The notes under the pieces: model-generated
What the model was told of the DNA's origin: nothing
Databases searched by the model: none
Seen by the model: only the letters and a program-made list of their open reading frames with translations
Source: a virus
Taxonomy: Duplodnaviria; Caudoviricetes
DNA length: 64,000 nucleotides
Strand: one strand, 5' to 3'
IMG/VR virus record: IMGVR_UViG_3300018429_000003
Location: 2,074 to 66,073 of that record
Shown here: one piece after another, positions 1,724-63,632 of the stretch
Layout of the letters: each line of letters begins with the position of its first letter
How positions within the stretch are numbered: the first letter of the stretch is position 1
Made by a program: the position numbers and the translations under genes

Positions 1724-2224
1724 ATGAGCGATCCCGGCATGATTGGAGAGTCCAGCCTCGAAAAGCGGATGATCGAGAGCCTCCGCCGTCTTGATGAGAG
1801 GATCGACTCCGAGCGGCATCTGACAAATGAAAAGTTTGCTCATTCAAAGAGCATTATAGAGGGCAACGATAAAAGATACGCAGAGCGATTTGAGGCACAG
1901 AAGGAAGCTAACGCGCAGCGATTCGACGCCCAAGAGGTAGCTAACAAGTACGATCAGGAGAAATCCAACGAATTCAGAGGCGCGTTAGAGGACGTAGGAA
2001 AAAGGCAGATGCCTCGCACCGAATGTGAGGCGATGTTTAAAGCGATATCGGAGAACGCTAACGCCGCCATACATGCCAACAGTGAAAAGATTGCGGCGCT
2101 TCAGGCGAGACTGGATCGAAACGAAGGACGCGGGAGCGGGTTTGATGCGGGATGGAAGATATTGATCGGAGTAGTCGCATTGGCCGCGGCGCTGCTTACA
2201 ATCTTTTTAGGACTGAAGCCGTGA
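1724..2224 (+). CDS. Coiled-coil protein with a C-terminal TM helix (lysis/membrane accessory type)
   Basis: Heptad-rich body; ends WKILIGVVALAAALLTIFLGLKP. Confidence 0.7.
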   Translation: MSDPGMIGESSLEKRMIESLRRLDERIDSERHLTNEKFAHSKSIIEGNDKRYAERFEAQKEANAQRFDAQEVANKYDQEKSNEFRGALEDVGKRQMPRTECEAMFKAISENANAAIHANSEKIAALQARLDRNEGRGSGFDAGWKILIGVVALAAALLTIFLGLKP

Positions 2225-3016: not shown

Positions 3017-3526
3017 ATGCGAAACCGAAAAGAAATCGACCAATTGAGTGCACACTCACGCGCAACCAAAGCATCAGGAAGGCATAATGGCAACGGAAAT
3101 ACCTTGCCTGTCAATTTGCACTTTCCAGAACCTCAACCGGAACAGCCAGATTCGCGTGAGCCTAAAGGTTGGCGCGAATACTTCCCCCACTGGGAGACTC
3201 TCAGCATGGCCGGCGGCAAGACGATAGAAAAGGGCTTTGTAATCACACCTGGCATTGCCGCAGTTCTCTTGGCGGCATTCCTCGCTGTTCTGGGTTGGGC
3301 GTACAAGTCCAGCACGGCGGATTCGCGGGAGACACGGGATTCGATCATCCGCATGGAGACGATGCTTGACGAGCGGACGCGAACCTTTGACGCGCAACAA
3401 GCAAAGTTGCAGGCCGAGATCAAGGAAGAGCGCGACATGGGGCAAGTCTATCGCGAGCGGCAGAATGAGAAGATGATGAAAATCACGCTGGCGATGCAGG
3501 CGAACGGAATTAAACTCAACCAGTGA
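3017..3526 (+). CDS. Membrane protein (one TM helix plus coiled coil)
   Basis: TM segment GIAAVLLAAFLAVLGWAY followed by a charged helical region. Confidence 0.65.
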   Translation: MRNRKEIDQLSAHSRATKASGRHNGNGNTLPVNLHFPEPQPEQPDSREPKGWREYFPHWETLSMAGGKTIEKGFVITPGIAAVLLAAFLAVLGWAYKSSTADSRETRDSIIRMETMLDERTRTFDAQQAKLQAEIKEERDMGQVYRERQNEKMMKITLAMQANGIKLNQ

Positions 3527-3862: not shown

Positions 3863-4303
3863 ATGATTAAAGCTCAACAGATAGATGTCGTCACTCACGA
3901 AAGGAAGCTATGCCCGACTTGTGTCAGGCTGCTTGATGTGGCGATGTTTCGAGATCCCTCAATTTGCATCGAGTGCTGGAATCTGAAGGGCGTCCGCCCG
4001 AACGAGAGAAGACCCTTACCCGCGAAACTAAGAGAACGCAGTAGCCGACTTGAGCGGGTCTACGGGATCACGTTTAGCGAATACCGGAAAATGTATCAGG
4101 CTCAGGCCGGTAAGTGCGCGATTTGCGAGACGGAGCGGCCTTTAAGCGCGGATCGTCCGTTGCCGTTCGGAGTTGACCACCACCACGATACTGGGCAGAT
4201 TCGTGGTTTGCTCTGCACAAACTGCAACGCGGGGCTTGGAATGTTCAAAGACATGATAGAACGATTCGATAACGCTAAAGCCTACCTGGAGCGGTTCAAG
4301 TGA
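3863..4303 (+). CDS. Endonuclease VII-family (HNH-type) nuclease
   Basis: YGITFSEY..MYQAQAGKCAIC...VDHHHDTGQIRGLLCTNCNAGLGMFKD is the Endo VII signature. Confidence 0.9.
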   Translation: MIKAQQIDVVTHERKLCPTCVRLLDVAMFRDPSICIECWNLKGVRPNERRPLPAKLRERSSRLERVYGITFSEYRKMYQAQAGKCAICETERPLSADRPLPFGVDHHHDTGQIRGLLCTNCNAGLGMFKDMIERFDNAKAYLERFK

Positions 4304-4749
4304 GAGTCTCACGGGGTAAAAGTCCTCGTGTGTCGGACAGTACAAAGCGGACGCCTCAACGCGCGCGCGTGGCCCCAAAGCGTGTAGCTCCAAAGCAAAT
4401 AGATAACTCCTGGCACCAGCGGTTCATCCGTAGTTACGCGAAAACGGGCAACATCACTCTCTCCTGTAAGGCGGCCCGAATTGGTCGGCAGACTTACTAC
4501 GAGCACTTGGCGAAGGATGCGCAGTTCCAGTTGGCCGTAGATGTAGCGAAAGAGGAAGCGCTCGACGAACTGGAAGCGGTAGCCCGAAAGCGCGCGCTCG
4601 ATTCCAGTGACTTTCTAATTAAATTCCTTTTGGAGAACCTTCGACCCGACGTTTACCGGCAAACCATTCGCAACCAGCACAGCGGGTCTATAGCAGTCGA
4701 TGTCAGTCAACTTTCAGACGACGAACTCCGCAAGCTCGCTCAAGGTTAG
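4300..4749 (+). CDS. terS: Terminase small subunit
   Basis: HTH (GNITLSCKAARIGRQTYY), SDFLIKFLL..LRPDVY and the LSDDELRKL tail; lies directly before TerL. Confidence 0.8.
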   Translation: MRVSRGKSPRVSDSTKRTPQRARVAPKRVAPKQIDNSWHQRFIRSYAKTGNITLSCKAARIGRQTYYEHLAKDAQFQLAVDVAKEEALDELEAVARKRALDSSDFLIKFLLENLRPDVYRQTIRNQHSGSIAVDVSQLSDDELRKLAQG

Positions 4750-6310
4750 AGCGCGGGCTGAGCTTGAACTGCGACGGCGGCATGCGGCTAAGAACTCACG
4801 TTACGATGCCTATCGAAGTGATCCGGTTCTGTATGCGAAGCGCGAGCTCGGGGTTGATTGGTGGGTAAAGCAGATAGAGGTTGCCGAGTCTGTAGTTAAC
4901 AATCCCAAGACGTTCGTTAAAGCTTGCCACAGCGTAGGAAAAACTCATTTAGCCGGCGGACTCGTAAGCTGGCATTACGACTGCTTCAATCCTTCCATCA
5001 CAAAGACTACGGCGCCGACGAAGGTTCAGGTGGTCGACCTCACCTGGAAGGAAGTTCGTCTTCAGCGCCGCGGCCGAAACATGCTCCCGAAGGCTGCGCG
5101 CATTGAATCCTTTCTACAGAACGGAGACTTTGACCCTGCGCACTTCGCCGCCGGCTACACAGCCAAGGACGCCAACTCGTTTCAGGGTGACCATGAAGAG
5201 CACCTGTTAATCATGTTCGAAGAGGCGGTGGGAATTGAGGAGCAGTTCTGGACTGCGGCCGAGGGCATGCTTTCGTCAGGACCAGGTAACCGCTGGCTGG
5301 CGATAATGAATCCAACCGATACGAGTTCACATGCCTACCAGGAAGAGCTTTCGGGCGACTGGAATGTTATCAATATCTCTGCGCTCGAGCATCCGAACTT
5401 AGCCGCGGAGCTGCGCGGACTTTCAAAGCCTTTCCCGAAAGCCATCAGCTTGTCGTGGGTTGAAGAGCGGGTCCGAAAGTGGTGCACGCTAATTCAGGAG
5501 AGCGAGAAGAAGGCGAGCGACTTCTGCTGGCCGCCTCTCGATTATTGTCTTGAAAAAGGAATCGGACCGAAGTGGTATCGCCCGGGCCCGCTGTTTGAGG
5601 GTAAGGTTCTGGGGCGCTGGCCATCTCAGTCGACCGATTCAGTATGGTCCGAGGCGATGTGGCTTTCCGCGATCGAGGAAAAGCCGGATCTTCAGCGGAA
5701 ATCGGAAGCGGTCCTTCCGGAGATTGGCTGTGACGTCGCACGCTTTGGTGACGACAATACGACAATACACGTACGCCGCAGCTGCGTGAGCATTCACCAC
5801 GAATCACACAACGGCATGTCAACCTCACAGACCGCTGGCCGTCTTAAGCAGATTGTTGACGAGGTCGCCAATCAAGCCAATTGCGAGAAAAATCAGATAG
5901 TAGTGAAAGTGGATGATGACGGAGTGGGCGGCGGCGTCATCGACCAACGAGGAGCGTACAACTTCGTCGGGTTATCAGCTGGGAGCCGTGCACTTGAGGA
6001 AGATAAGTATCCGAATCGCCGGAGCGAGTTTTGGTTCTCGACTGCAGCGCGCGCGGATGACAACCGGCTGGACTTCTCACACCTATCGCCGGAAGCGCTC
6101 ACCGACTTGAGGCGTCAATTCATGGCGCCAAAGTGGAAGCTGGACAATCAGGGCCGTCGGGTCGTTGAAAAGAAGGAAGACACGAAGAAGCGAATCAAGC
6201 GCAGCCCGGACGATGCAGACGCTGTGAACCTGGCATACGCACCAACCGGAATTGAGTTGCCGACGATTGGGCCAATCTCGATCACTCAAAAGAGTTCATG
6301 GAGGGTCTAA
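4700..6310 (+). CDS. terL: Terminase large subunit
   Basis: Walker A (CHSVGKT), Walker B variant (IMFEEA), nuclease motifs GCDVARFGDD, VDDDGVGGG and SPDDADA. Confidence 0.95.
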   Translation: MSVNFQTTNSASSLKVRARAELELRRRHAAKNSRYDAYRSDPVLYAKRELGVDWWVKQIEVAESVVNNPKTFVKACHSVGKTHLAGGLVSWHYDCFNPSITKTTAPTKVQVVDLTWKEVRLQRRGRNMLPKAARIESFLQNGDFDPAHFAAGYTAKDANSFQGDHEEHLLIMFEEAVGIEEQFWTAAEGMLSSGPGNRWLAIMNPTDTSSHAYQEELSGDWNVINISALEHPNLAAELRGLSKPFPKAISLSWVEERVRKWCTLIQESEKKASDFCWPPLDYCLEKGIGPKWYRPGPLFEGKVLGRWPSQSTDSVWSEAMWLSAIEEKPDLQRKSEAVLPEIGCDVARFGDDNTTIHVRRSCVSIHHESHNGMSTSQTAGRLKQIVDEVANQANCEKNQIVVKVDDDGVGGGVIDQRGAYNFVGLSAGSRALEEDKYPNRRSEFWFSTAARADDNRLDFSHLSPEALTDLRRQFMAPKWKLDNQGRRVVEKKEDTKKRIKRSPDDADAVNLAYAPTGIELPTIGPISITQKSSWRV

Positions 6311-27929: not shown

Positions 27930-28277
27930 ATGCCTGTCAAAACCAAACGCACAAGTTCAACGATGAGCACTTACCACGCGACCGCGAAACGTCTTAACGA
28001 AACCGTCGAGCGTCACGCGAAGGGCGCAGCGGTTCTGGTGAGTGAACTGGCTCCCGTAAGTGAGAAGGACCATCTGCATATGTACCAAACTGTGAGCGCG
28101 CGGGAGGAGAGAAAGGGCAGGTGGAGAATAATCGTAGCTGCTGTTTATTCCGTCTTTCAAGAGTATGGGACGATTTTTATGGAGGCTCAGCCATTCTTCA
28201 GACCTGGAATTGCGTCGGCCCGAAGAGCACTTCGACGTGATTTGAAGATTGTGAAGGGACCACCGCGGATTAGCTAA
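27930..28277 (+). CDS. HK97 gp10-like tail completion protein
   Basis: LAPV......YSVFQEYGTIFMEAQPFFRPG. Confidence 0.8.
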   Translation: MPVKTKRTSSTMSTYHATAKRLNETVERHAKGAAVLVSELAPVSEKDHLHMYQTVSAREERKGRWRIIVAAVYSVFQEYGTIFMEAQPFFRPGIASARRALRRDLKIVKGPPRIS

Positions 28278-29067
28278 TTTTTGTTCTCTTTCTCTTTATC
28301 CACGCACTGCGGCGATGGCCCGCATTTTCTTTAGGTGTTGCCCACCTGCAATTCCCCGGTTCATAGTCACCGTCATTGTTAATACGATCAATTTGATGCC
28401 TGGAAGTTGGCCGTCTCCCCATATCAGCAAGAAAGTTTTCGAAGGTCTGCCAGCGCTCACATACCTTTATTCCACGGCCTCCGTAGTATTCCCAACTGGC
28501 CATTCTTGGATTTGAGCAGCGTGATTTCATCCCAGCCCAAACTTTATATTCTGCGCTCTTAGTCTCGCCGTGGACCAAGTTCCCCTTATTCTCAAGTGGA
28601 ATTCCAAGATGTCTGCAATGCGATGCGATGCAATTACCCGAAACCGCAAAGCGCCTACCCACATCATTAGCTGATAACCCGTCGTTAATCAGTTCGCGCA
28701 ATTCATCAGCGGACGGCATCGGCAAGTCCTCTTTGCGTCGCGTAGTCCATATCTTTGGCTTTGCAATGCCGTGCCGTTTAAGCCAGAAAGGGACCGCGGT
28801 GAAGTCCACGCCGAACATCGCAGCGATTTCACGGTAACTATGATGCTCACCGTGAACCAATCTCTCTAGATCTTCCTTCGTGGGTTCTTGCTGTCCTCGA
28901 TTCAGCAGGCCGTTATGACTTGCTCGCGGTTGAATCCCATAGTGAAGTAGCCACCGGCGCACCGTGATGTGAGCAACCTCATAGATGCTCCCAATCTGAC
29001 GTGTAGTAAGGCGTTGAGCCTCATACAAGTCGCGAACCGTTTCTTTGCTTGGACGTTTACGTTTCAC
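28270..29067 (-). CDS. HNH endonuclease with three N-terminal HTH repeats
   Basis: EYKVWAGMKSRC.NP....YYGGRGIKVCERW..FENFLADMG...IDRINNDGDYEPGNCRWAT. Confidence 0.9.
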   Translation of the reverse strand: MKRKRPSKETVRDLYEAQRLTTRQIGSIYEVAHITVRRWLLHYGIQPRASHNGLLNRGQQEPTKEDLERLVHGEHHSYREIAAMFGVDFTAVPFWLKRHGIAKPKIWTTRRKEDLPMPSADELRELINDGLSANDVGRRFAVSGNCIASHCRHLGIPLENKGNLVHGETKSAEYKVWAGMKSRCSNPRMASWEYYGGRGIKVCERWQTFENFLADMGRRPTSRHQIDRINNDGDYEPGNCRWATPKENAGHRRSAWIKRKRTKIS

Positions 29068-30868: not shown

Positions 30869-33571
30869 GTCATCGAAGTCGAACGCCTAGAGGCTCTGTT
30901 CACCGCAAATACTGCGTCAGCAGAGCGTAACTTTGCCTCTCTTGATCAAAAGGTCTCAGCACTCGACCGCAAACTCCAAGGCTTCCAGGGCGTAGATCAT
31001 CTCGCCAGTAAACTAAACAAGGGCAGCAAGGCCGCTGGCGTCATGGCTGGAGCCGTGGGAGGCTTAGTCGTCATGCTTGGCCAGCGTTTGGTTGACGCAC
31101 TCACTTCCGGCGCCAGCGCGTGGCTCAATTACAGCTCCAAACTCGAATCAACAAAAATAGCCTTTACCACCATGCTGGGTAGCGTTGACCTGGCCACTGA
31201 ACACCTCGCGGAACTTCAAACATTCGCCCTAAAGACTCCCTTCGAATTTGAGGGCCTGATCGATGCCTCCCAGACGATGCAGGCACTTGGCTTCAACGCC
31301 TCTCAGGTTATCCCGATCTTAGAAGACGTTGGCAACGCGGTTGCTGGAGCCGGTGGCGGTAAAGAAAGGCTCGACCGCGTAGTCCTGGCGTTAGCTCAGA
31401 TCCAATCAAAAGGAAAAGTTGCCACCCAGGAAATTAACCAATTAGCAGAGTCTGGAATCAGCGGCTGGAAGATTCTCGAAGCGCAGTTGGGTAAGAGCCG
31501 CGCTGAGCTAACGAAGATGGTCGAATCTGGCCAGATATCTTCAGCCGTTTTCCTCGAAGCGTTTCAGAAGTTCTCTAAGCAAAACTTTGGCGGCTTGATG
31601 GAGGCCCAGTCAAAGACCTTCGCGGGCGCCATGAGCAACATCAAAGACGCGCTGCTCCAGACTTCGGCAACCGCCTTCGCACCGCTCTATCAAAAGCTCA
31701 GCGAAACTGCCCTGGCTTTAGGTGACATGGCGAATAACTCCAAGAAGTTCAAAGACGACATGGAGAGTCTTGGAAAGGTGATGGTCACCGTCTGGGAGGG
31801 AGCGGGAACCCTTATCTACGCGGCCAGGGATGCGGTAGGCATCGTCTCCGCGCTGGCTACCCAGCAGTTCGCGATTATGACGCACGGTGCGATGGCGTTC
31901 GCCCGTGGCCTTCAATCGGTGCTGTACAACATGGAGGCTTTTGCGAGGCTTGCAGTTGGCGATTTCTACGGGGCTGCCATAGCGATGATAAAGAGCAATC
32001 AGCAGGCGGCGCTTGCTGTGGGCGAGATGAAGGAAGCAGTTGAGGCCAGCGGCATCGCCATCCGCGCGGCAGGTCAAATGTGGACCGATCTTAGCGATCG
32101 TGCGACTCGGGCCGCGATGAAAACGGTCGAAGCTGGGGTAATGATTAACGCCGCCGCAGCAAACCTGCTGGGCGCTAACGTTGGACAGAGCGCTTTGGGT
32201 GCGGGAATCTTCCGACAGAAAGCCGCTCCCACCAGTCTGGGTACATCAACGTCGAAAGGCACTGACCCGGCTGTTGCTCAGCAACGAATGGAAGAGCTGA
32301 GGCTCAAGGCTACGCTCGCAAGACTTGACGAGGAAGATCGAGCGAGAGAACGAAGCCTTGAGAAAAGAAAAAAGCAGTTCGAAGTGTTCATGTTCGAACT
32401 CGGAGTTAGCGAGGAAAGCCGCCACCTAATAATAAAGAACAGCCTGGAGAGCGAAAAGAAGGCTGCGGAAGCTTTGCGCGATCCTCAGCAACGCAATATT
32501 CAACTGCTCGAAATCGCAAATAAAATCACTGAGGAGAATAATCGACACCAGAAGGCTAACGAGGATATGGCCGACAGGCGCGCTAAGGTTCTCGACGAGA
32601 CCAACGACTTCATCAAGGATCAAAACGAGGCGATGGCCGAGAGCGTTGTGCGCACCGACCGATGGACCGCCGCAGTCAATGCCCATATTAAATCGCTGGC
32701 TAAGCAGGGGGTTGCCCTCCGGTATGAGCAGGAACTGATGTTGCGCATGAGCGCGCTCGATAAGGTCGTCGCAGAGAACAGGGAGCGGGCCATTGAGGCG
32801 ATGGCGGACCCGTCTAATATGCGCATCCCCTCCGGTCTGGATCAAATATTTGGAGATATCGAGGCGCAGCGCGACGCGTTGGCCGATGCCATCAACCAAG
32901 GAATGGGCGGCGAGCTTCCACCTGTGATGATGGACCTGTCTTCTTTCTACGATCAGATGCGCCAACTTGGGCGCGACCTCACTAACACAATTGACGATTC
33001 CATCCGCACGGGCTTTGAGCGAGGCATTGGCGCGGGCGTGCTGACCTTCTTTCAGGGAATACTGGAGATGATCAACAGTGCCGCTCTGAATGCGCTGGAA
33101 AAGCGCCTTGCAGACGTTTTCTCGGGCTTAGGCGGGGGTAGCGCGGGCGGCGGTGGTAGTTGGTGGCAAAAGCTGCTGGGAATAGTGGTAGGGGGGATTG
33201 CTGGAGGCGTTGGCGGCAGTCTAACCGGAGGCGGCACGCCGGGCGGTACCGACATTGGCCGCTCCGTCAACCTTCCAGGCTTCTCAGGGTTCGGCCGGCG
33301 GGCCAAAGGTGGAGATGTAAGCGCTTGGAAGCCTTACATGGTCGGTGAAAAAGGCCCGGAGATGGTTATCCCAAACCGCAACTCTTACGTCGTTCCCAAC
33401 AATCAACTGGCTGCGATGAATGGAGGCGAGGCAAAGAATTACCACTTGCATTTAACGCAGTTAATTCAAGCACCAAGCGGCCGAGTTGCGCCCGAAAGCG
33501 CGGAACAAGCCGCCGCGAAAGCGATGAGCGCGATGGCGAGTTTTAGCGCGAAACGAGGAGGGAACTTCTGA
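30869..33571 (+). CDS. Tape measure protein (true start unresolved)
   Basis: Tape-measure domain FALKTPFE...LAQIQSKGKV..EINQLAE; RAKGG.V....YMVGEKGPE; the frame extends upstream of ATG 31043 as VIEVERLEALFTANT. Confidence 0.9.
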   Translation, partial: VIEVERLEALFTANTASAERNFASLDQKVSALDRKLQGFQGVDHLASKLNKGSKAAGVMAGAVGGLVVMLGQRLVDALTSGASAWLNYSSKLESTKIAFTTMLGSVDLATEHLAELQTFALKTPFEFEGLIDASQTMQALGFNASQVIPILEDVGNAVAGAGGGKERLDRVVLALAQIQSKGKVATQEINQLAESGISGWKILEAQLGKSRAELTKMVESGQISSAVFLEAFQKFSKQNFGGLMEAQSKTFAGAMSNIKDALLQTSATAFAPLYQKLSETALALGDMANNSKKFKDDMESLGKVMVTVWEGAGTLIYAARDAVGIVSALATQQFAIMTHGAMAFARGLQSVLYNMEAFARLAVGDFYGAAIAMIKSNQQAALAVGEMKEAVEASGIAIRAAGQMWTDLSDRATRAAMKTVEAGVMINAAAANLLGANVGQSALGAGIFRQKAAPTSLGTSTSKGTDPAVAQQRMEELRLKATLARLDEEDRARERSLEKRKKQFEVFMFELGVSEESRHLIIKNSLESEKKAAEALRDPQQRNIQLLEIANKITEENNRHQKANEDMADRRAKVLDETNDFIKDQNEAMAESVVRTDRWTAAVNAHIKSLAKQGVALRYEQELMLRMSALDKVVAENRERAIEAMADPSNMRIPSGLDQIFGDIEAQRDALADAINQGMGGELPPVMMDLSSFYDQMRQLGRDLTNTIDDSIRTGFERGIGAGVLTFFQGILEMINSAALNALEKRLADVFSGLGGGSAGGGGSWWQKLLGIVVGGIAGGVGGSLTGGGTPGGTDIGRSVNLPGFSGFGRRAKGGDVSAWKPYMVGEKGPEMVIPNRNSYVVPNNQLAAMNGGEAKNYHLHLTQLIQAPSGRVAPESAEQAAAKAMSAMASFSAKRGGNF

Positions 33572-33576
33572 TGCGT

Positions 33577-33608
33577 AGAAATGAAAACGGCCAACCGAAG
33601 TTGACCGT
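33577..33608 (-). terminator. Intrinsic terminator of the repeat RNA
   Basis: ACGGTCAAC-TTCG-GTTGGCCGT followed by TTTCATTTCT on the minus strand. Confidence 0.8.
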
Positions 33609-33609
33609 C

Positions 33610-33704
33610 TTTCCGTACCATGCCTTGCCTGGTCTCGCCGCGCCGAGCCTCGCCGGGCCGCTCCACATCTTGCCTTGACGCGCCAGGCCTAGCCTAGCCG
33701 TGCC
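33610..33704 (-). repeat. 19 x 5-nt array with constant GGY and variable NN
   Basis: GGCAC GGCTA GGCTA GGCCT GGCGC GTCAA GGCAA GATGT GGAGC GGCCC GGCGA GGCTC GGCGC GGCGA GACCA GGCAA GGCAT GGTAC GGAAA. Confidence 0.95.
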
Positions 33705-33710
33705 GGGCGC

Positions 33711-33740
33711 AGTGTACGCGAAGAATGGAGGATTTGACAA
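33711..33740 (-). promoter_or_regulatory. sigma70-type promoter for the repeat RNA
   Basis: TTGTCA-N18-TACACT; predicted +1 falls on the first G of the array (33704). Confidence 0.7.
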
Positions 33741-34388
33741 GTGGCTTGGATAAATTTTGACGAAGTTTTGCTCGATCCGTTTTATACGAACCTCGCGCGC
33801 GGCGGCCCGGAATATGCGACCGCGACTATCGACACCATAGCAGGCGTCGAGCAAACACGATCGAGTCGTTACGATTATATTAGTCGGTATCAAATTGACT
33901 TCGCAGAGCTATCGAACCAGAGACGTAAGGACATCCGCACCTTCCACATTTTGCGCTTTGGCATGCTCTACGGGTTCCGCTTTCTCGCACCAGATGACTC
34001 GACAGACGATGGCAAGGGCGTGTTGCTGGATGCTTCCGGCGTTCAGGTGAGTTCGGTGGTGAACGGTTCGACCTATTATTTGGCCAAGCGGTATGTCGAT
34101 GTTCGAACTTATTACCGTCGCATCGTGAAGCCAATCGGGGGAGCGTGGGGGACAGCGCCTCAGTTGCTACTCGCTGGTTCGCCGGCTGCTTCAACCACAA
34201 ACACAACGAACGGGCAGATAGTTGCCGGTGCAAACGGGAACACTCCTACATGGACCGGAACATTCCATCTGCCTGCAAGATTTTTGACTGATTTTTCCGA
34301 CATGGCCACCGATGAAACCACGATATCGGAGTGGACCGGGATCGGGCTCAGAGAATTGTTGCCCATTGCTTTAGGAATTTCGGCTTAA
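33741..34388 (+). CDS. Distal tail protein (DUF2460/GTA-like)
   Basis: FDEVLL......GGPEYAT...YGFRF...YLAKRY...RRIVKP...FHLPARF..D; GGAGG SD. Confidence 0.85.
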   Translation: MAWINFDEVLLDPFYTNLARGGPEYATATIDTIAGVEQTRSSRYDYISRYQIDFAELSNQRRKDIRTFHILRFGMLYGFRFLAPDDSTDDGKGVLLDASGVQVSSVVNGSTYYLAKRYVDVRTYYRRIVKPIGGAWGTAPQLLLAGSPAASTTNTTNGQIVAGANGNTPTWTGTFHLPARFLTDFSDMATDETTISEWTGIGLRELLPIALGISA

Positions 34389-43266: not shown

Positions 43267-43998
43267 CTAGGAAGTGCCGCTGCCGGCCCTTTCCCTTTGG
43301 CTCTTTTCAATGGCCTGAGTAAATCGAATCGCCTCACGGTAATCGTTACCATTGCGGCGTTGTTTTCGCGCTGCATAGCTCCACGCCATGGAGTCGGCAG
43401 AATGTAAGAGGTGTCGTATGGTTCCGTTTGCCAGAGCTGTAGATTTCAGCCCAAAGCCATGCAGCCGAAGGTCGGGTCTGAGCGTTTTTACCGAAGAGAG
43501 GACCGCAAGAATCGCTCCGATGTCGGCGTTCCGTTTGCAGACCGAGCCCACTCCTACCCAAGCGCCAATTGGAAACCGCTCTCCGTACATCTGGACATGC
43601 CTTGCATAGTCAAGCGGTTCATAGCCTTGCAGGACCGGCAGGATGTAGGTATCGGTCTTCTCGGTTATTAGATCATCGTATTCACGAATCGTGAGACGCT
43701 GATGCTGTTCGACTGTCATCCCGGTTCTGGCCAGCATTGGCGCCTCGCACATGTAATCGCGGCTCACGGCGGCAACGAGATTTCCGTTACCTCTCCAGCG
43801 ATTCACTTCACGGGCGAAGTCCGATGTGGGCTTTGGATAGCCGCCGTGCTTTTCGATTGTGGTGAAACCTGCGCAATCCATAATCCAATCCCTTACCTCG
43901 AACGGTCCCTTGCGATCGCAAATCCGATTGACAGAGATAAAGCACCGCTCAAAATGCTTAGCGTCTGACGGCTGGTGGAGTCCCACATAGAAATCCAA
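43267..43998 (-). CDS. tRNA-guanine-transglycosylase-like (DpdA-like) protein
   Basis: WIMDCAGF, RDYMCE, LPVLQG, VGVGSVC, LHGFGLK and SADSMAWS motifs of phage TGT-fold proteins. Confidence 0.75.
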   Translation of the reverse strand: MDFYVGLHQPSDAKHFERCFISVNRICDRKGPFEVRDWIMDCAGFTTIEKHGGYPKPTSDFAREVNRWRGNGNLVAAVSRDYMCEAPMLARTGMTVEQHQRLTIREYDDLITEKTDTYILPVLQGYEPLDYARHVQMYGERFPIGAWVGVGSVCKRNADIGAILAVLSSVKTLRPDLRLHGFGLKSTALANGTIRHLLHSADSMAWSYAARKQRRNGNDYREAIRFTQAIEKSQRERAGSGTS

Positions 43999-47645: not shown

Positions 47646-48224
47646 ATGCGAGTCTTAATTGCATGTGAGTTTTCGGGGGTAGTGCGGGACGCCTTTGCTG
47701 CGCGAGGCCACAATGCGTGGTCATGCGATCTGCTTCCGAGCGAGACGCCCGGCCAGCACATTCAGGCTGACGCGATTGAGACTGCATATCTAACTCAGGA
47801 TTGGGATCTCTTAATAGCCCACCCGCCTTGCACGCACCTTGCGGTCAGCGGTGCGCGGTGGTTCAAGGATAAGCAGTCAGAGCAAGCGGACGCCTTGCGG
47901 TTCGTGGAAAAGCTGACGCTCGCGCCGATCGGTAAAATTGCCATTGAAAACCCAATCAGCATTATCAGTTCGCGTATCCGCAAGCCTGATCAAATTATTC
48001 AGCCCTGGCAGTTCGGGCACGGCGAAACCAAGGCTACCTGCCTGTGGCTAAAGAATCTCCCACTGCTTACGCCAACCAATATCGTTGATGGGCGAACGCC
48101 CCGAGTGCACTACGAGCCGCCGGGGGCGAATAGGTGGAAAAACAGATCGCGCACGCTTCAAGGAATCGCGGATGCGATGGCTGATCAATGGGGCGGCATT
48201 GTCTCGGCATCGGCTGCCGCGTGA
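47646..48224 (+). CDS. Short phage DNA cytosine methyltransferase
   Basis: RVLIACEFSG...SCD...IAHPPCT...IENP...QPWQFG..ETKATCLWL...RSRT..GIADAMADQW. Confidence 0.85.
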   Translation: MRVLIACEFSGVVRDAFAARGHNAWSCDLLPSETPGQHIQADAIETAYLTQDWDLLIAHPPCTHLAVSGARWFKDKQSEQADALRFVEKLTLAPIGKIAIENPISIISSRIRKPDQIIQPWQFGHGETKATCLWLKNLPLLTPTNIVDGRTPRVHYEPPGANRWKNRSRTLQGIADAMADQWGGIVSASAAA

Positions 48225-48757: not shown

Positions 48758-49804
48758 ATGAGCGCAGCAATTGAATCTCAGCCGATTACGGCCCCGCCAC
48801 CTGATGCCCGCTCTTTAGCGGAAAAGATGAGCGCCACCTGGGCAAAGATGGTTGCCAGCGACCGCACGCCCCCGTCGCCACGCCAGTACGTTTACGCGTC
48901 TTCTTATCGTGCCTGTGATCGCCGGATGGTCTACGACATGACGCATCCGGACCAGGTGCAGCCCTTTAGCCCTGACACTCTGGCCAACTTCAGACGCGGT
49001 AACGACCGTGAGCGAGAGCTGCTCATCGACCTCGCGCGCGTCGGTCGGGCGAATGAGCCTCAATTCGAGATAGTCGGACAGCAGGAACGATTTGAACTGA
49101 AAGACCGTAAGGGCCGGGTTGTTATCGTCGGCAAAGTTGACTGTCGGCTTAAGTTCGGGAGAGCCAGCGCGCCGGTTGAAACGAAATCCTGGAATCCAAA
49201 CACCGTCGCTCGCATACATCGCTTTGATGACCTGTTTTTGAATCCGTGGACACGTTCCGGCGCTTACCAGCTGCTTTGTTATCTCTACGGTTCAAACGAG
49301 CCGATCGGGTTCATGATTCTTGACCGAAACGGTTTACCGCTCATTCTGCCAGTAGTCCTTTACGACCACCTGGATCTCGTAGAAGAGTTTCTTAATAAAG
49401 CTACAAAGGCAATGGACCATCGCGAGGCCGGGACTCTTCCGGACTTCCATCGGGACCCATCGGAATGTAAGCGATGTTCTTTCTTCGGCACGGCCTGCAA
49501 CCCCCCATTGAAGTACGACGGCGCTCAAGTTCTGACGGATCCTGAAATCCTTCAGATGCTTGAAATCCGCGAACAGAACAAGAAGGCGGCAAAGGACTTT
49601 GAGTGGGTCGATAAGGAACTTAAAAAGCGACTTCGCGGCGTTGAGCAGGGGATAGCAGGCGGGTTTGTGTTGGCTGGAAAATGGACGGCTCAAACCTCTT
49701 ACGACTTGCCGCCGGCGGTTAAAGAAGAGTTCAAGCGGACTGACCCTAAGGGGCAATTCAGACTGACAATTACTAAGGTGGATGGTCAGCCTGAGAAAGA
49801 ATAA
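48758..49804 (+). CDS. Cas4/RecB-like PD-(D/E)xK exonuclease
   Basis: N-terminal C.R; GKVD...VETKS; QLLCY; CKRCSFFGTAC (Fe-S-type Cys cluster). Confidence 0.85.
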   Translation: MSAAIESQPITAPPPDARSLAEKMSATWAKMVASDRTPPSPRQYVYASSYRACDRRMVYDMTHPDQVQPFSPDTLANFRRGNDRERELLIDLARVGRANEPQFEIVGQQERFELKDRKGRVVIVGKVDCRLKFGRASAPVETKSWNPNTVARIHRFDDLFLNPWTRSGAYQLLCYLYGSNEPIGFMILDRNGLPLILPVVLYDHLDLVEEFLNKATKAMDHREAGTLPDFHRDPSECKRCSFFGTACNPPLKYDGAQVLTDPEILQMLEIREQNKKAAKDFEWVDKELKKRLRGVEQGIAGGFVLAGKWTAQTSYDLPPAVKEEFKRTDPKGQFRLTITKVDGQPEKE

Positions 49805-62648: not shown

Positions 62649-63632
62649 GTGAAAGTTCTGCTTCTGCAGCTTGATGGAAAGATCCCGAACATCGCGTTAA
62701 TGCGCATCGCAGCGCACCATCGCACTCTGGGTGACGACGTTGAGTTACGCCACGGCACTAGTGAGACAGAAGCGGGCCTGTTCGATGATGCCGATCAAGT
62801 TTACGCTTCGCTCATATTCACTAAGACACGACCAAAAGCCGAGCGACTAAAAGCAACGCGGCCTAATTCTGTTATTGGCGGTACAGGATGGGACTTAACT
62901 ACAACACTTGAAGCGCACGGCATTACAACGCCCACTTATGATTACTCGATCTACCCCGGCTGGAAGCAGAGTATTGGCTTTACGCAGCGCGGTTGCCGTT
63001 TACGCTGCTCGTTTTGCGTAGTCCCTCAGAAGGAGGGCGCGATTCGCGAAGTCGCGACCATTGCAGACATTTGGCGTGGCGACCCTTCGCCGCGGGAGAT
63101 CTTATTGCTCGACAATGATTTCTTTGGTCAACACCAGTGGCGCGAACGAATTGCAGAGATCAGGGATGGCGGGTTCAAGGTTTCATTTAATCAAGGCATC
63201 AACGCGCGTACGCTTAACGATGAAACCGCCGCCGCGATTGCCTCAGTGCGTTATTACGATGACAGCATGAGCGCGCGGCGGGTTTATACCGCGTGGGACA
63301 ACCGAAAGGACGAGGCGCGACTGTTTGCAGGGCTCAACGCGCTTACACGGCAGGGCGTCAAGCCTCACCACATCATGGTCTACATGCTGATTGGCTACTG
63401 GCCGGGCGAAACGGACGCAGATTGGGAGTACAGGCGGAGTCAATTGAGAACTTTTGGTGCGCGACCGTACCCGATGCCTTACGTTCGAACCGCAGCGACG
63501 ATGGGTTTTCAGCGTTATTGCGTCGGCGCATATGACAAGCGGATTCAATGGACCGACTGGAAGGCTGCGAACTATCGACCTGAGAGGCTGGGCCTTCTGA
63601 CCCACGAACCTGAACTGGAGTTTGCAGCATGA
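62649..63632 (+). CDS. Phage radical SAM protein
   Basis: QRGCRLRCSFC (CX3CX2C); N-terminal DGKIPNIALMRI domain; LLDNDF. Confidence 0.9.
   Translation: MKVLLLQLDGKIPNIALMRIAAHHRTLGDDVELRHGTSETEAGLFDDADQVYASLIFTKTRPKAERLKATRPNSVIGGTGWDLTTTLEAHGITTPTYDYSIYPGWKQSIGFTQRGCRLRCSFCVVPQKEGAIREVATIADIWRGDPSPREILLLDNDFFGQHQWRERIAEIRDGGFKVSFNQGINARTLNDETAAAIASVRYYDDSMSARRVYTAWDNRKDEARLFAGLNALTRQGVKPHHIMVYMLIGYWPGETDADWEYRRSQLRTFGARPYPMPYVRTAATMGFQRYCVGAYDKRIQWTDWKAANYRPERLGLLTHEPELEFAA

What the first reader, a model, noticed from the sequence alone, without database searches (positions are those of the whole stretch)
34071..34091. The array's first dinucleotides spell a wobble-skipping near-match to the adjacent tail gene
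Seen: with one skipped base between dinucleotides, the first NN units give ACn TAn TAn CTn GCn AAn AAn. The DUF2460 gene ~370 bp away reads ACC TAT TAT TTG GCC AAG CGG (TYYLAKR). That is 11/12 matches over six codons, starting at the first NN and with each skip on a third codon position. The one mismatch is a synonymous Leu change (CTn vs TTG), and the seventh unit would give K/N instead of R. Inference: the RNA may target this conserved motif in competing relatives while the resident allele escapes. Caveat: by hand the chance is about 37/4^12 per site, roughly 0.3 expected hits across both strands of the window and about 0.003 within this gene. The later NN units do not match here, so this is suggestive only.
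Basis: partly seen in the sequence, partly recalled or inferred. Interest (0 to 1): 0.75.

Follow-up and report, generated by a model that had tools for sequence, protein, structure and literature searches.

The report
Lone VIPR guide aimed at rivals' tail genes
A small guide-RNA gene wedged between two tail genes of this soil phage spells, skipping every third base, the versions of those same two genes carried by a rival phage rather than its own, so it looks like a weapon kept beside its own resistant copies.

Summary
The match is real. 34071-34091 (ACC TAT TAT TTG GCC AAG CGG, DUF2460) agrees with guide units 1-6 at 11 of 12 positions, with each skip on a wobble base. Inside this phage that is chance level: 64-79 of 300 shuffled guides do as well, and the full guide scores 17/38 there.

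The array (minus strand, 33704-33610) is a VIPR guide RNA (vrRNA), a class described in 2026 preprints. Relatives settle the question. The only close relative with DNA in hand (G001, 67 kb, no array) reads ACC TAC TAT CTG GCG AAA AAG at the same motif, 14/14 for units 1-7. Units 7-15 match the end of its tape-measure gene at 17/18 (KIAPESAEQ). The resident scores 11/14 and 14/18. No shuffle of 1500 reached both blocks.

The guide is therefore two-part. It is aimed at the two genes flanking its own roughly 170-bp insertion, as the array-less rival carries them.

Neither phage has a vipr gene. Vipr homologues beside GGY-NN arrays occur in genomes of the family that holds distant prophage relatives.

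The published test (80% or more over the full guide) is not met; the best is 23/38.

This scan has noted the same "lone guide beside its resistant allele" pattern in other soil phages.

The parts
33711..33740 (-). Sigma-70-type promoter of the guide-RNA gene: TTGTCA (33740-33735), 18-nt spacer, TACACT (33716-33711). This would put the start near the first G of the array (33704).
   Evidence: the only promoter-like site in 33400-33900, 9 of 12 matches, against a shuffle mean of 0.4. Sequence seen. The -35 box abuts the GTG start of DUF2460.
33610..33704 (-). vrRNA repeat tract: 19 pentamers in one register. 14 are GGY-NN. The irregular triplets are unit 6 GTC, unit 8 GAT, unit 9 GGA, unit 15 GAC and unit 19 GGA. 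Units 1-7 form guide block A and units 7-15 form guide block B. Units 16-19 have no assigned target.
   Evidence: the only such array in the 66,073-bp genome. TRF sees only a weak period-5 signal. No Rfam family matches.
33578..33609 (-). 3' tail: a hairpin (ACGGUCAAC-UUCG-GUUGGCCGU) followed by a U-rich run. It is the likely terminator and the structured cap of the vrRNA.
   Evidence: the hairpin is present in both the MFE and the centroid structure, while the repeat tract itself is not unusually structured (z -1.6). The strict consensus scan did not call a terminator here.
33574..33740 (.). Inserted cassette of about 170 bp holding tail, array, promoter and a new Shine-Dalgarno GGAGGA. In G001 the tape-measure stop overlaps the DUF2460 ATG (TAATG). 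Here a relic ATG still overlaps the TGA stop (33569-33573), and DUF2460 restarts at GTG 33741.
   Evidence: alignment of the two junctions shows a single indel of about 170 nt. The boundaries are my reading of the sequences.
34071..34091 (+). Site A, resident allele, in DUF2460 (TYYLAKR). It scores 11/14 against units 1-7. The mismatches are Leu TTG in place of CTN and Arg CGG in place of AAN.
   Evidence: G001 allele 14/14 and L005 allele 12/14.
33482..33508 (+). Site B, resident allele, at the tape-measure C-terminus (RVAPESAEQ: CGA GTT GCG CCC GAA AGC GCG GAA CAA). It scores 14/18 against units 7-15. The mismatches are Arg CGA in place of AAN and Ser AGC in place of TCN.
   Evidence: G001 allele AAG ATT GCG CCA GAG TCT GCG GAA CAA scores 17/18. 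The site lies in the one conserved island of otherwise divergent C-termini.
31043..33571 (+). Tape measure protein gene (842 aa).
   Evidence: Pfam TMP_3, E 5e-31.
33741..34388 (+). DUF2460 tail gene (215 aa).
   Evidence: Pfam DUF2460, E 2e-19. Only 18 proteins with E of 0.001 or better among 5.8 billion.

Best explanation
The roughly 130-nt minus-strand transcript is a solo (vipr-less) VIPR guide RNA. It is carried on a roughly 170-bp cassette inserted exactly at the tape-measure/DUF2460 gene junction.

Its variable dinucleotides, read with the published one-base-skip rule, form two guide blocks that share one unit. Units 1-7 spell T-Y-Y-L-A-K-K of DUF2460. Units 7-15 spell K-V-A-P-E-S-A-E-Q at the end of the tape-measure gene. 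Both are spelled as array-less rival phages of the G001 type carry them, on the coding strand and with the skip on the wobble base.

Inferred mechanism: a Vipr protein supplied in trans (by the host chromosome, another prophage or a co-infecting phage) polymerises on the GGY triplets. It pairs the NN bases with the template strand of the rival's late operon and blocks transcription of its tail genes. The resident copies 64 bp and 331 bp away carry 4 and 3 informative mismatches and are spared. Tight linkage keeps the weapon and its resistant alleles together.

Shown here: the anatomy, the matches and their statistics, the absence of a recognisable vipr gene, and the presence of Vipr homologues in the candidate host family. 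Inferred only: expression, processing into one or more RNAs, binding by Vipr, silencing, and whether 7-9 matched units are enough.
For: - **Anatomy.** Promoter, 19 in-register pentamers and a hairpin tail.
- **Published rule.** GGY/NN repeats, one-base skip, either strand, no PAM, wobble-phased coding targets, no self hits (preprint 10.64898/2026.04.26.720920, Results and Methods section 27).
- **Matches.** G001 scores 14/14 for units 1-7 and 17/18 for units 7-15; the resident scores 11/14 and 14/18.
- **Shuffles on G001.** The best block is reached by 4 of 1500 shuffles, the second by 2 of 1500, and both by 0 of 1500. On the phage's own genome the guide is unremarkable (120 of 300 and 90 of 300).
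- **Decoys.** The summed block score is 16.3 in G001, against 11.0-12.9 in five other sequence sets.
- **Exact scans of 2.9 million viral contigs.** The units 7-15 pattern gives 2 hits: G001 and one unrelated gene. The units 1-7+TA pattern gives 13 hits: G001 and 12 that are not DUF2460 (10 out of frame).
- **Which allele the guide follows.** G000 and G001 differ at 8 informative bases in the two sites. The guide follows G001 at 7 and the resident at 1 (read).
- **Insertion.** G001 has no array and no gap at the junction.
- **No vipr gene found.** phmmer with SUSP1 Vipr gives a best E of 0.16. A 3-sequence Vipr profile against the six-frame translations of both phages gives a best E of 0.1.
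- **Vipr in the candidate host family.** Homologues sit next to GGY-NN arrays of 13-19 units in two genomes of the family of a Pyrinomonadaceae MAG that carries a distant prophage relative (BLASTP to SUSP1 Vipr 3e-12 and 2e-8).
- **Precedent in print.** Solo vrRNAs that score lower on self than on rivals are described in 10.64898/2026.10.15.759431 (section 8).
Against: - No site reaches the published threshold of 80% over the full guide. The best is 23/38 (61%) in G001.
- No published test that I read shows that 7-9 matched units out of 19 suffice.
- DNA-level support comes from one rival genome and one 1.6-kb fragment. Three further relatives are known only as proteins.
- Units 16-19 have no target.
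- The resident Arg allele also occurs in the array-less L005 and in P0005-P0007. The resident's mismatch density (2 of 7 and 3 of 9 codons) is ordinary for genes this diverged. Escape by selection is therefore not shown.
- The source of Vipr is unknown, and the host of this phage is not established.
- Expression is untested.
- The consensus scan called no terminator.
Confidence: 0.7

Rival explanations
1. The array is a vrRNA, but its real target is an unsampled sequence matching all 15-19 units. The two block matches to G001 are coincidence or leftovers of past targets.
For: The published natural-target criterion is full-length identity of 80% or more, and nothing reaches it. Databases hold very few relatives of this phage: 18 DUF2460 homologues and 1 close viral contig.
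Against: No shuffle of 1500 gives two such blocks. Both blocks are in frame, on the same strand, and in the two genes that flank the array's own insertion point in the nearest relative. In all viral contigs, the exact units 7-15 pattern hits only G001 and one unrelated gene.
Confidence: 0.1
2. Self-regulation: the RNA, with Vipr, tunes the phage's own tail operon through the imperfect resident sites (11/14 and 14/18). Alternatively it acts as a plain cis-antisense RNA against the polycistronic tail mRNA it overlaps.
For: The resident sites lie within 64 and 331 bp of the gene. The resident tape-measure site is 14/16 over units 8-15. The transcript is fully complementary to the intergenic part of the tail mRNA.
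Against: In the phage's own genome the guide does not exceed shuffles. The guide follows the rival's allele at 7 of 8 differing informative bases. The preprint reports no self-targets of 80% or more, and lower self scores than rival scores for solo guides. A plain antisense role does not explain the 5-nt GGY periodicity.
Confidence: 0.08
3. Homing or drive: the cassette sits between the two sites it recognises in empty-site relatives. Vipr binding, or cutting by a nuclease partner, there during co-infection stimulates recombination that copies the cassette and its resistant flanks into the rival.
For: The two sites bracket the insertion point (64 bp upstream and 331 bp downstream in the resident). 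The insertion is precise at the start codon. Some VIPR types carry predicted nucleases. The same tail module holds an HNH homing endonuclease gene that G001 lacks.
Against: No nuclease or vap gene is linked to the cassette. Only one occupied and one empty site are known. The characterised VIPR activity is repression, not cleavage.
Confidence: 0.08
4. It is not a guide RNA at all. The GGC-NN periodicity serves another purpose, such as wrapping a ring-shaped RNA-binding protein in the manner of TRAP, or it is a DNA-level repeat.
For: I held this reading before I found the VIPR literature. Nothing shows binding to Vipr.
Against: It does not explain why the NN bases spell two conserved coding motifs of a rival in codon phase. 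Arrays of the same grammar sit beside Vipr homologues in related bacteria.
Confidence: 0.03

Closest known systems
Solo (orphan) vrRNAs of VIPR-null SUSP1-family phages and F5 satellites (bioRxiv 10.64898/2026.10.15.759431; I read sections 8, 17, 25, 26 and passages)
   Same: It is a GGY-NN guide gene on an element with no vipr or vap gene, and it is presumed to borrow Vipr in trans. The guide scores lower on self than on rivals. The target sites are coding, with the skip on the wobble base.
   Different: The published targets are vipr, other vrRNAs, satellites and host REP elements, scored over full-length windows at 0.8 or more. Here the targets are two tail genes of a sister phage. The guide is two-part (7 and 9 units, sharing one unit) and reaches only 55-61% over its full length. 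The gene is inserted between the resident, mismatched copies of its own two targets. The tail is a simple hairpin terminator rather than the SUSP1 pseudoknot. The setting is a soil phage rather than an enterobacterial one.
Type II VIPR system of Escherichia phage SUSP1: Vipr, Vap1 and four vrRNAs (bioRxiv 10.64898/2026.04.26.720920 and .720927)
   Same: The repeat grammar, the one-base-skip reading, independence of strand, and an RNA of about 100 nt with a structured 3' end. Vipr homologues of 28% and 25% identity exist in the candidate host family. In my alignment they keep 4 of the 5 RNA-contact residues named in the structure paper: H17, R138, D177 and R179, but not W178.
   Different: No vipr or vap gene lies beside the array or anywhere in the 66-kb genome. 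The array has 19 units against the 9-16 reported. Five units have irregular triplets.
Staggered vrRNA arrays (fig. S18 legend of 10.64898/2026.04.26.720920; I saw the legend only)
   Same: One long pentamer tract could yield several guides. Here the irregular units (6, 8, 9, 15, 19) fall at the borders of the matched blocks.
   Different: Processing was not tested. The published overlap is one nucleotide, whereas here one whole unit (AA) serves both blocks.
Homing endonuclease genes and poison-antidote linkage (general knowledge, recalled, not from a call)
   Same: A small selfish insert recognises the empty allele and sits beside recognition sites that have been altered in its carrier.
   Different: Recognition is by RNA guide rather than by protein. 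Neither cleavage nor mobility has been shown.

Membership tests
vrRNA (VIPR guide RNA) | Tandem GGY-NN pentamers in one register (9-16 reported; callers accept 4 or more, and internal degeneracy is noted) | tested here: met
   19 units in register, 14 of them GGY. Definition taken.
vrRNA (VIPR guide RNA) | Own transcription unit ending in a structured 3' tail | tested here: inconclusive
   There is a promoter-like site and a stable terminal hairpin. The tail is not the SUSP1-type pseudoknot, the strict terminator scan found none, and there are no expression data (one search listed no run).
vrRNA (VIPR guide RNA) | NN bases spell a natural target under the one-base-skip rule at 80% or more of all informative positions | tested here: not met
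   The best full-length scores are 23/38 in G001 and 22/38 in the phage's own genome. The rule is met only block-wise: 14/14 for units 1-7 and 17/18 for units 7-15.
vrRNA (VIPR guide RNA) | Skip base falls on the codon wobble position in coding targets | tested here: met
   Both G001 sites and both resident sites are in frame with the skip on the third position.
vrRNA (VIPR guide RNA) | No self-target of 80% or more on the source contig | tested here: met
   The maximum is 22/38 (58%) in the window. The block scan on the whole genome is not above shuffles.
vrRNA (VIPR guide RNA) | Bound by a Vipr protein | not testable with these tools
   Needs pull-down or reconstitution.
Complete VIPR locus (vipr plus vap plus vrRNA) | A vipr (RAMP) gene next to the array | tested here: not met
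   The neighbours are the tape-measure and DUF2460 genes. SUSP1 Vipr phmmer gives a best E of 0.16. The 3-sequence Vipr profile against the six-frame translations of G000 and G001 gives a best E of 0.1. A very divergent Vipr type cannot be excluded, because no ORF was folded.
Solo vrRNA (VIPR-null element) | A vrRNA on an element lacking vipr and vap, with the self score below the rival score | tested here: met
   (no vipr). Resident 11/14 and 14/18 against rival 14/14 and 17/18.
Staggered vrRNA array | One tract processed into several vrRNAs | not testable with these tools
   Needs small-RNA end mapping. The only hint is that the irregular units coincide with block borders.

The most novel reading that the evidence does not exclude
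The cassette is a natural RNA-guided drive. One guide RNA reads two separate sites that bracket the cassette's own insertion point in cassette-less sister phages. Engagement of a borrowed Vipr there, or of a nuclease partner, during co-infection cripples the rival's tail operon. It also promotes gene conversion that copies the cassette, together with its linked resistant flanks, into the rival. This would be a homing element whose specificity is written in RNA.
Probability: 0.08. Interest if true: 0.9.

Novelty: new variant of a known kind. Interest (0 to 1): 0.6.

Why it matters
VIPR was described only in 2026, and its natural targets are known mainly for enterobacterial and Pseudomonas phages.

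This case shows a lone guide in an uncultured soil phage that is aimed at structural genes of a sister phage. The guide gene is physically linked to the resident, mismatched copies of both targets.

If the two-block reading holds, full-length scoring at 80% or more (the published way to find targets) would miss such guides. It would also mean that 7-9 matched units can define a target.

The case gives a compact, testable example of weapon-plus-immunity linkage in phage-phage conflict. It also offers a possible route by which guide cassettes spread.

Tried and rejected
- **TRAP-like ring-protein array.** This was my first idea. I dropped it once the VIPR preprints and the codon-phased matches were in hand.
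- **Rfam.** No family matches; the only hit was a spurious snoRNA at E 2.6.
- **INPHARED phages.** blastn of the tail region found no match.
- **Sequencing runs.** None was listed and no RNA holder was listed.
- **Tape-measure C-terminus protein search.** It returned only the query itself and one weak hit, so the conservation of site B rests on a single pairwise comparison.
- **Third guide block (units 15-19 or 16-19).** No meaningful site in G001.
- **Contiguous or block targets in 401 genomes of the candidate host family.** 9 genomes had a match with at most one mismatch, against 5 for the reversed-pattern control. All 9 were unrelated sequence.
- **Arrays in G001.** Only two overlapping three-mismatch coding hits.
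- **Arrays in the three MAGs with distant prophages.** None.
- **Vipr candidates.** PHROGs and Pfam on 33 ORFs of the window gave no RAMP-like hit, and several of the unknown "ORFs" look non-coding. I did not fold any ORF, so a very divergent Vipr is not excluded.
- **Escape by selection.** Considered and not claimed. The resident Arg allele is shared with array-less relatives, and the mismatch density is ordinary.
- **Scoring null.** The block scores assume a uniform 0.25 chance per base. That this is only approximate shows in an AT-rich decoy (SUSP1, block 22/28). I therefore rely on the shuffles and decoys rather than on the nominal probabilities.
- **Supplements.** They may already list tail-gene targets or solo guides of this kind.
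- **Search for this in print.** 'vipr'+'vrrna' found 6 papers, 4 of them listed. 'vrrna'+'tape measure' found 1 paper. The one tape-measure passage I saw there concerns how satellites are defined; I did not read the other two. In the text I read I found no description of a vrRNA inserted between its own targets' homologues, and none of a two-block guide.

Full report
**What is at the coordinates.**
Window 34071-34091 (+) reads ACC TAT TAT TTG GCC AAG CGG. It lies in frame in a 215-aa ORF (33741-34388) that Pfam assigns to DUF2460. The ORF sits downstream of an 842-aa tape-measure gene (31043-33571) and upstream of the hub and tail-tip genes.

The 169-bp gap between the tape-measure and DUF2460 genes carries a minus-strand unit with three parts:
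- a promoter-like TTGTCA-18-TACACT;
- 19 pentamers in one register starting at 33704, of which 14 are GGY-NN;
- a stable hairpin followed by a U-rich run. The strict terminator scan did not call this hairpin.

The dinucleotides read AC TA TA CT GC AA AA GT GC CC GA TC GC GA CA AA AT AC AA.

The window is nearly all of a 66,073-bp virus record, and this is the only such array in it.

**Is the match more than chance?**
Not by itself. Units 1-6 match the site at 11/12 and units 1-7 at 11/14. Across both strands of the window, 3 sites reach 11/12 or better for any six-unit block, against 4.4 and 3.8 expected from two kinds of shuffle. The first block finds such a site in 79 of 300 and 64 of 300 shuffles. 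Over all 19 units the site scores 17/38, and the best site in the window scores 22/38.

**What the array is.**
Earlier notes of this scan on other genomes pointed me to 2026 preprints on VIPR systems. I read the following:
- the Results and Methods section 27 of 10.64898/2026.04.26.720920;
- the first part of the Results of the structural companion 10.64898/2026.04.26.720927;
- sections 8, 17, 25 and 26 of 10.64898/2026.10.15.759431;
- passages of 10.64898/2026.10.21.760802.

In these papers vrRNAs are tandem GGY-NN repeats with a structured 3' tail. One Vipr protomer binds each repeat and hides the GGY triplet. The NN bases pair with DNA while every third target base is skipped. Either strand can be the target and no PAM is needed. 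Natural targets are mostly coding, with the skip on the wobble base. They are called at 80% or more identity over the whole guide, and no self hit reaches that level. Solo vrRNAs on vipr-less phages and satellites are described, and they score lower on self than on rivals.

**Relatives.**
The DUF2460 protein has only 18 database proteins with E of 0.001 or better among 5.8 billion. Three of them (P0002-P0004, 82-86% identical to each other and about 66% to the resident) read TYYLAKK. The resident and P0005-P0007 read TYYLAKR.

DNA could be fetched for one close relative. This is G001, a 67,024-bp viral contig rated complete. DNA was also fetched for a 1.6-kb fragment, L005.

G001 shares the structural module with this phage at about 50-85% protein identity for most structural proteins. 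Its early genes are different.

**The decisive comparison.**

| Site | Guide units | Resident (G000) | L005 | G001 |
|---|---|---|---|---|
| A, DUF2460 motif | 1-7 | 11/14 | 12/14 | 14/14 (ACC TAC TAT CTG GCG AAA AAG) |
| B, tape-measure C-terminus | 7-15 | 14/18 (CGA GTT GCG CCC GAA AGC GCG GAA CAA) | not on the fragment | 17/18 (AAG ATT GCG CCA GAG TCT GCG GAA CAA = KIAPESAEQ) |

Site B lies in the one conserved island of two otherwise divergent C-termini. All the sites are in frame, on the coding strand, with the skip on the wobble base. The RNA therefore has the sense of the mRNA and could pair only with the template DNA strand.

**Controls.**
- On G001, 4 of 1500 shuffled guides reach the best block, 2 of 1500 reach the second, and none reaches both.
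- On the phage's own genome the real guide is unremarkable: 120 and 90 of 300 shuffles do as well.
- The summed block score is 16.3 on G001, against 11.0-12.9 on five other sequence sets. One pooled decoy set includes a short locus from a genome flagged unpublished; nothing rests on it.
- Distant DUF2460 loci give at most 11/14 and 12/16.
- In 2.9 million viral contigs, the exact units 7-15 pattern (with R allowed at unit 8) hits G001 and one unrelated gene. The units 1-7+TA pattern hits G001 and 12 sites that are not DUF2460. Ten of these are out of frame, and several of the contigs repeat one another.
- The two phages differ at 8 informative bases within the two sites. The guide follows G001 at 7 and the resident at 1 (read).

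**The insertion.**
In G001 the tape-measure stop overlaps the DUF2460 ATG and there is no array. Here a relic ATG still overlaps the TGA stop. About 170 bp follow, and DUF2460 restarts at a GTG behind a new GGAGGA.

The cassette therefore sits between the resident copies of its own two targets. Site B lies 64 bp upstream of it and site A 331 bp downstream.

**Where is Vipr?**
The neighbours of the array are tail genes. I located SUSP1 Vipr in the public record. The residues named in the structure paper (H17, R138, D177-W178-R179) check out. It has no homologue among the ORFs of either phage (best E 0.16).

The distant prophage relatives lie in MAGs titled Pyrinomonadaceae, so I scanned 201 genomes of that family for eight GGY-NN units. 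31 matched, many of them low-complexity, and the reversed-pattern control also scored. Of those 31, I fetched eight loci, and all eight hold arrays of 7-19 units.

In two of the eight, a protein of 202-208 aa immediately upstream of the array is a Vipr homologue (BLASTP to SUSP1 Vipr 3e-12 and 2e-8). A profile built from the three Viprs finds nothing in the six-frame translations of G000 or G001 (best E 0.1).

The guide is thus solo as far as sequence can tell, and a suitable Vipr exists in the candidate host family. The host itself is not established, and I folded no ORF.

**How it most likely works.**
A borrowed Vipr coats the RNA. Blocks A and B recognise the rival's DUF2460 and tape-measure genes, and transcription of its late operon is blocked. 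The resident alleles are spared, and linkage keeps guide and resistant alleles together.

What is shown is the anatomy, the matches, the statistics and the gene content. Everything about expression, processing, binding and silencing is inferred from the preprints.

The main weakness is that no site reaches 80% over the full guide; the best is 23/38. The reading needs one of two things. Either the tract is processed into shorter guides, as in the staggered arrays mentioned in a figure legend I could read. The irregular units 6, 8, 9, 15 and 19 do fall at the block borders. Or 7-9 matched units out of 19 must be enough for binding. Units 16-19 have no target.

I do not claim that the resident alleles evolved as an escape. 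The Arg allele is shared with array-less relatives, and the mismatch density is ordinary for this divergence.

**Comparison and novelty.**
This is a new example of the published solo-vrRNA class. Three features were not described in the text I could read. The targets are structural genes of a sister phage. The guide is two-part. The guide gene lies between the resident homologues of both targets.

This scan has already noted lone guides beside near-targets in other soil phages, one of them behind a DUF2460 gene (e1-5360537, e1-5360538, e1-5978933, e1-5813040). The pattern is therefore recurrent within the scan. Those notes are not independent evidence for this case.

The boldest reading not excluded is that the flanking arrangement makes the cassette an RNA-guided homing element. 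Nothing here shows cleavage or mobility.

Noticed in passing
window 28270-29067 (-): A 265-aa gene with HTH domains and an HNH endonuclease domain lies on the opposite strand inside the tail module (PHROG HNH endonuclease families, E down to 2e-39). It has no counterpart in G001. It is probably a homing endonuclease insertion about 4.5 kb upstream of the guide cassette.
   Followed up: partly
window 33571-33678 (+): A relic ATG overlaps the tape-measure TGA stop, as the DUF2460 start does in G001. It opens a 35-codon frame that reads through the array on the plus strand. It is most likely a leftover of the insertion rather than a gene.
   Followed up: no
L045 5374-6000 with arrays at 6009-6073 (+) and 3310-3475 (-); L047 1125-1733 with array at 1760-1854 (+): Two genomes of the family of a Pyrinomonadaceae MAG carry Vipr homologues (28% and 25% identity to SUSP1 Vipr) directly upstream of GGY-NN arrays of 13 and 19 units. 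In L045 an ORF with an HExxH-type motif lies just upstream of the Vipr homologue.
   Followed up: partly
window 33610-33629 (-) and L045, L049, L051: The last units here (GGCAA GGCAT GGTAC GGAAA) resemble runs in other arrays of that bacterial family, for example GGCAA GGGAT GGTAC inside an L045 array. A GGAAA/GGAAG followed by a hairpin-terminator ending recurs in L051 and L045. These units may be a constant 3' part rather than guide.
   Followed up: no
window 43267-43998 (-), 47646-48224 (+), 48758-49804 (+), 62649-63632 (+): These are a DpdA-family gene (Pfam E 3e-37), a DNA methyltransferase, a Cas4-domain exonuclease-like gene and a radical SAM gene (PHROGs). The phage appears well stocked with DNA-modification and recombination functions.
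   Followed up: no
L048 (G077) 4297-4381 and L047 (G025) 1760-1854: Two genomes share the first eight or so units of an array and then diverge in the later dinucleotides. In L048 the ORF upstream is not a Vipr homologue. This may be an example of array turnover or vipr loss.
   Followed up: no
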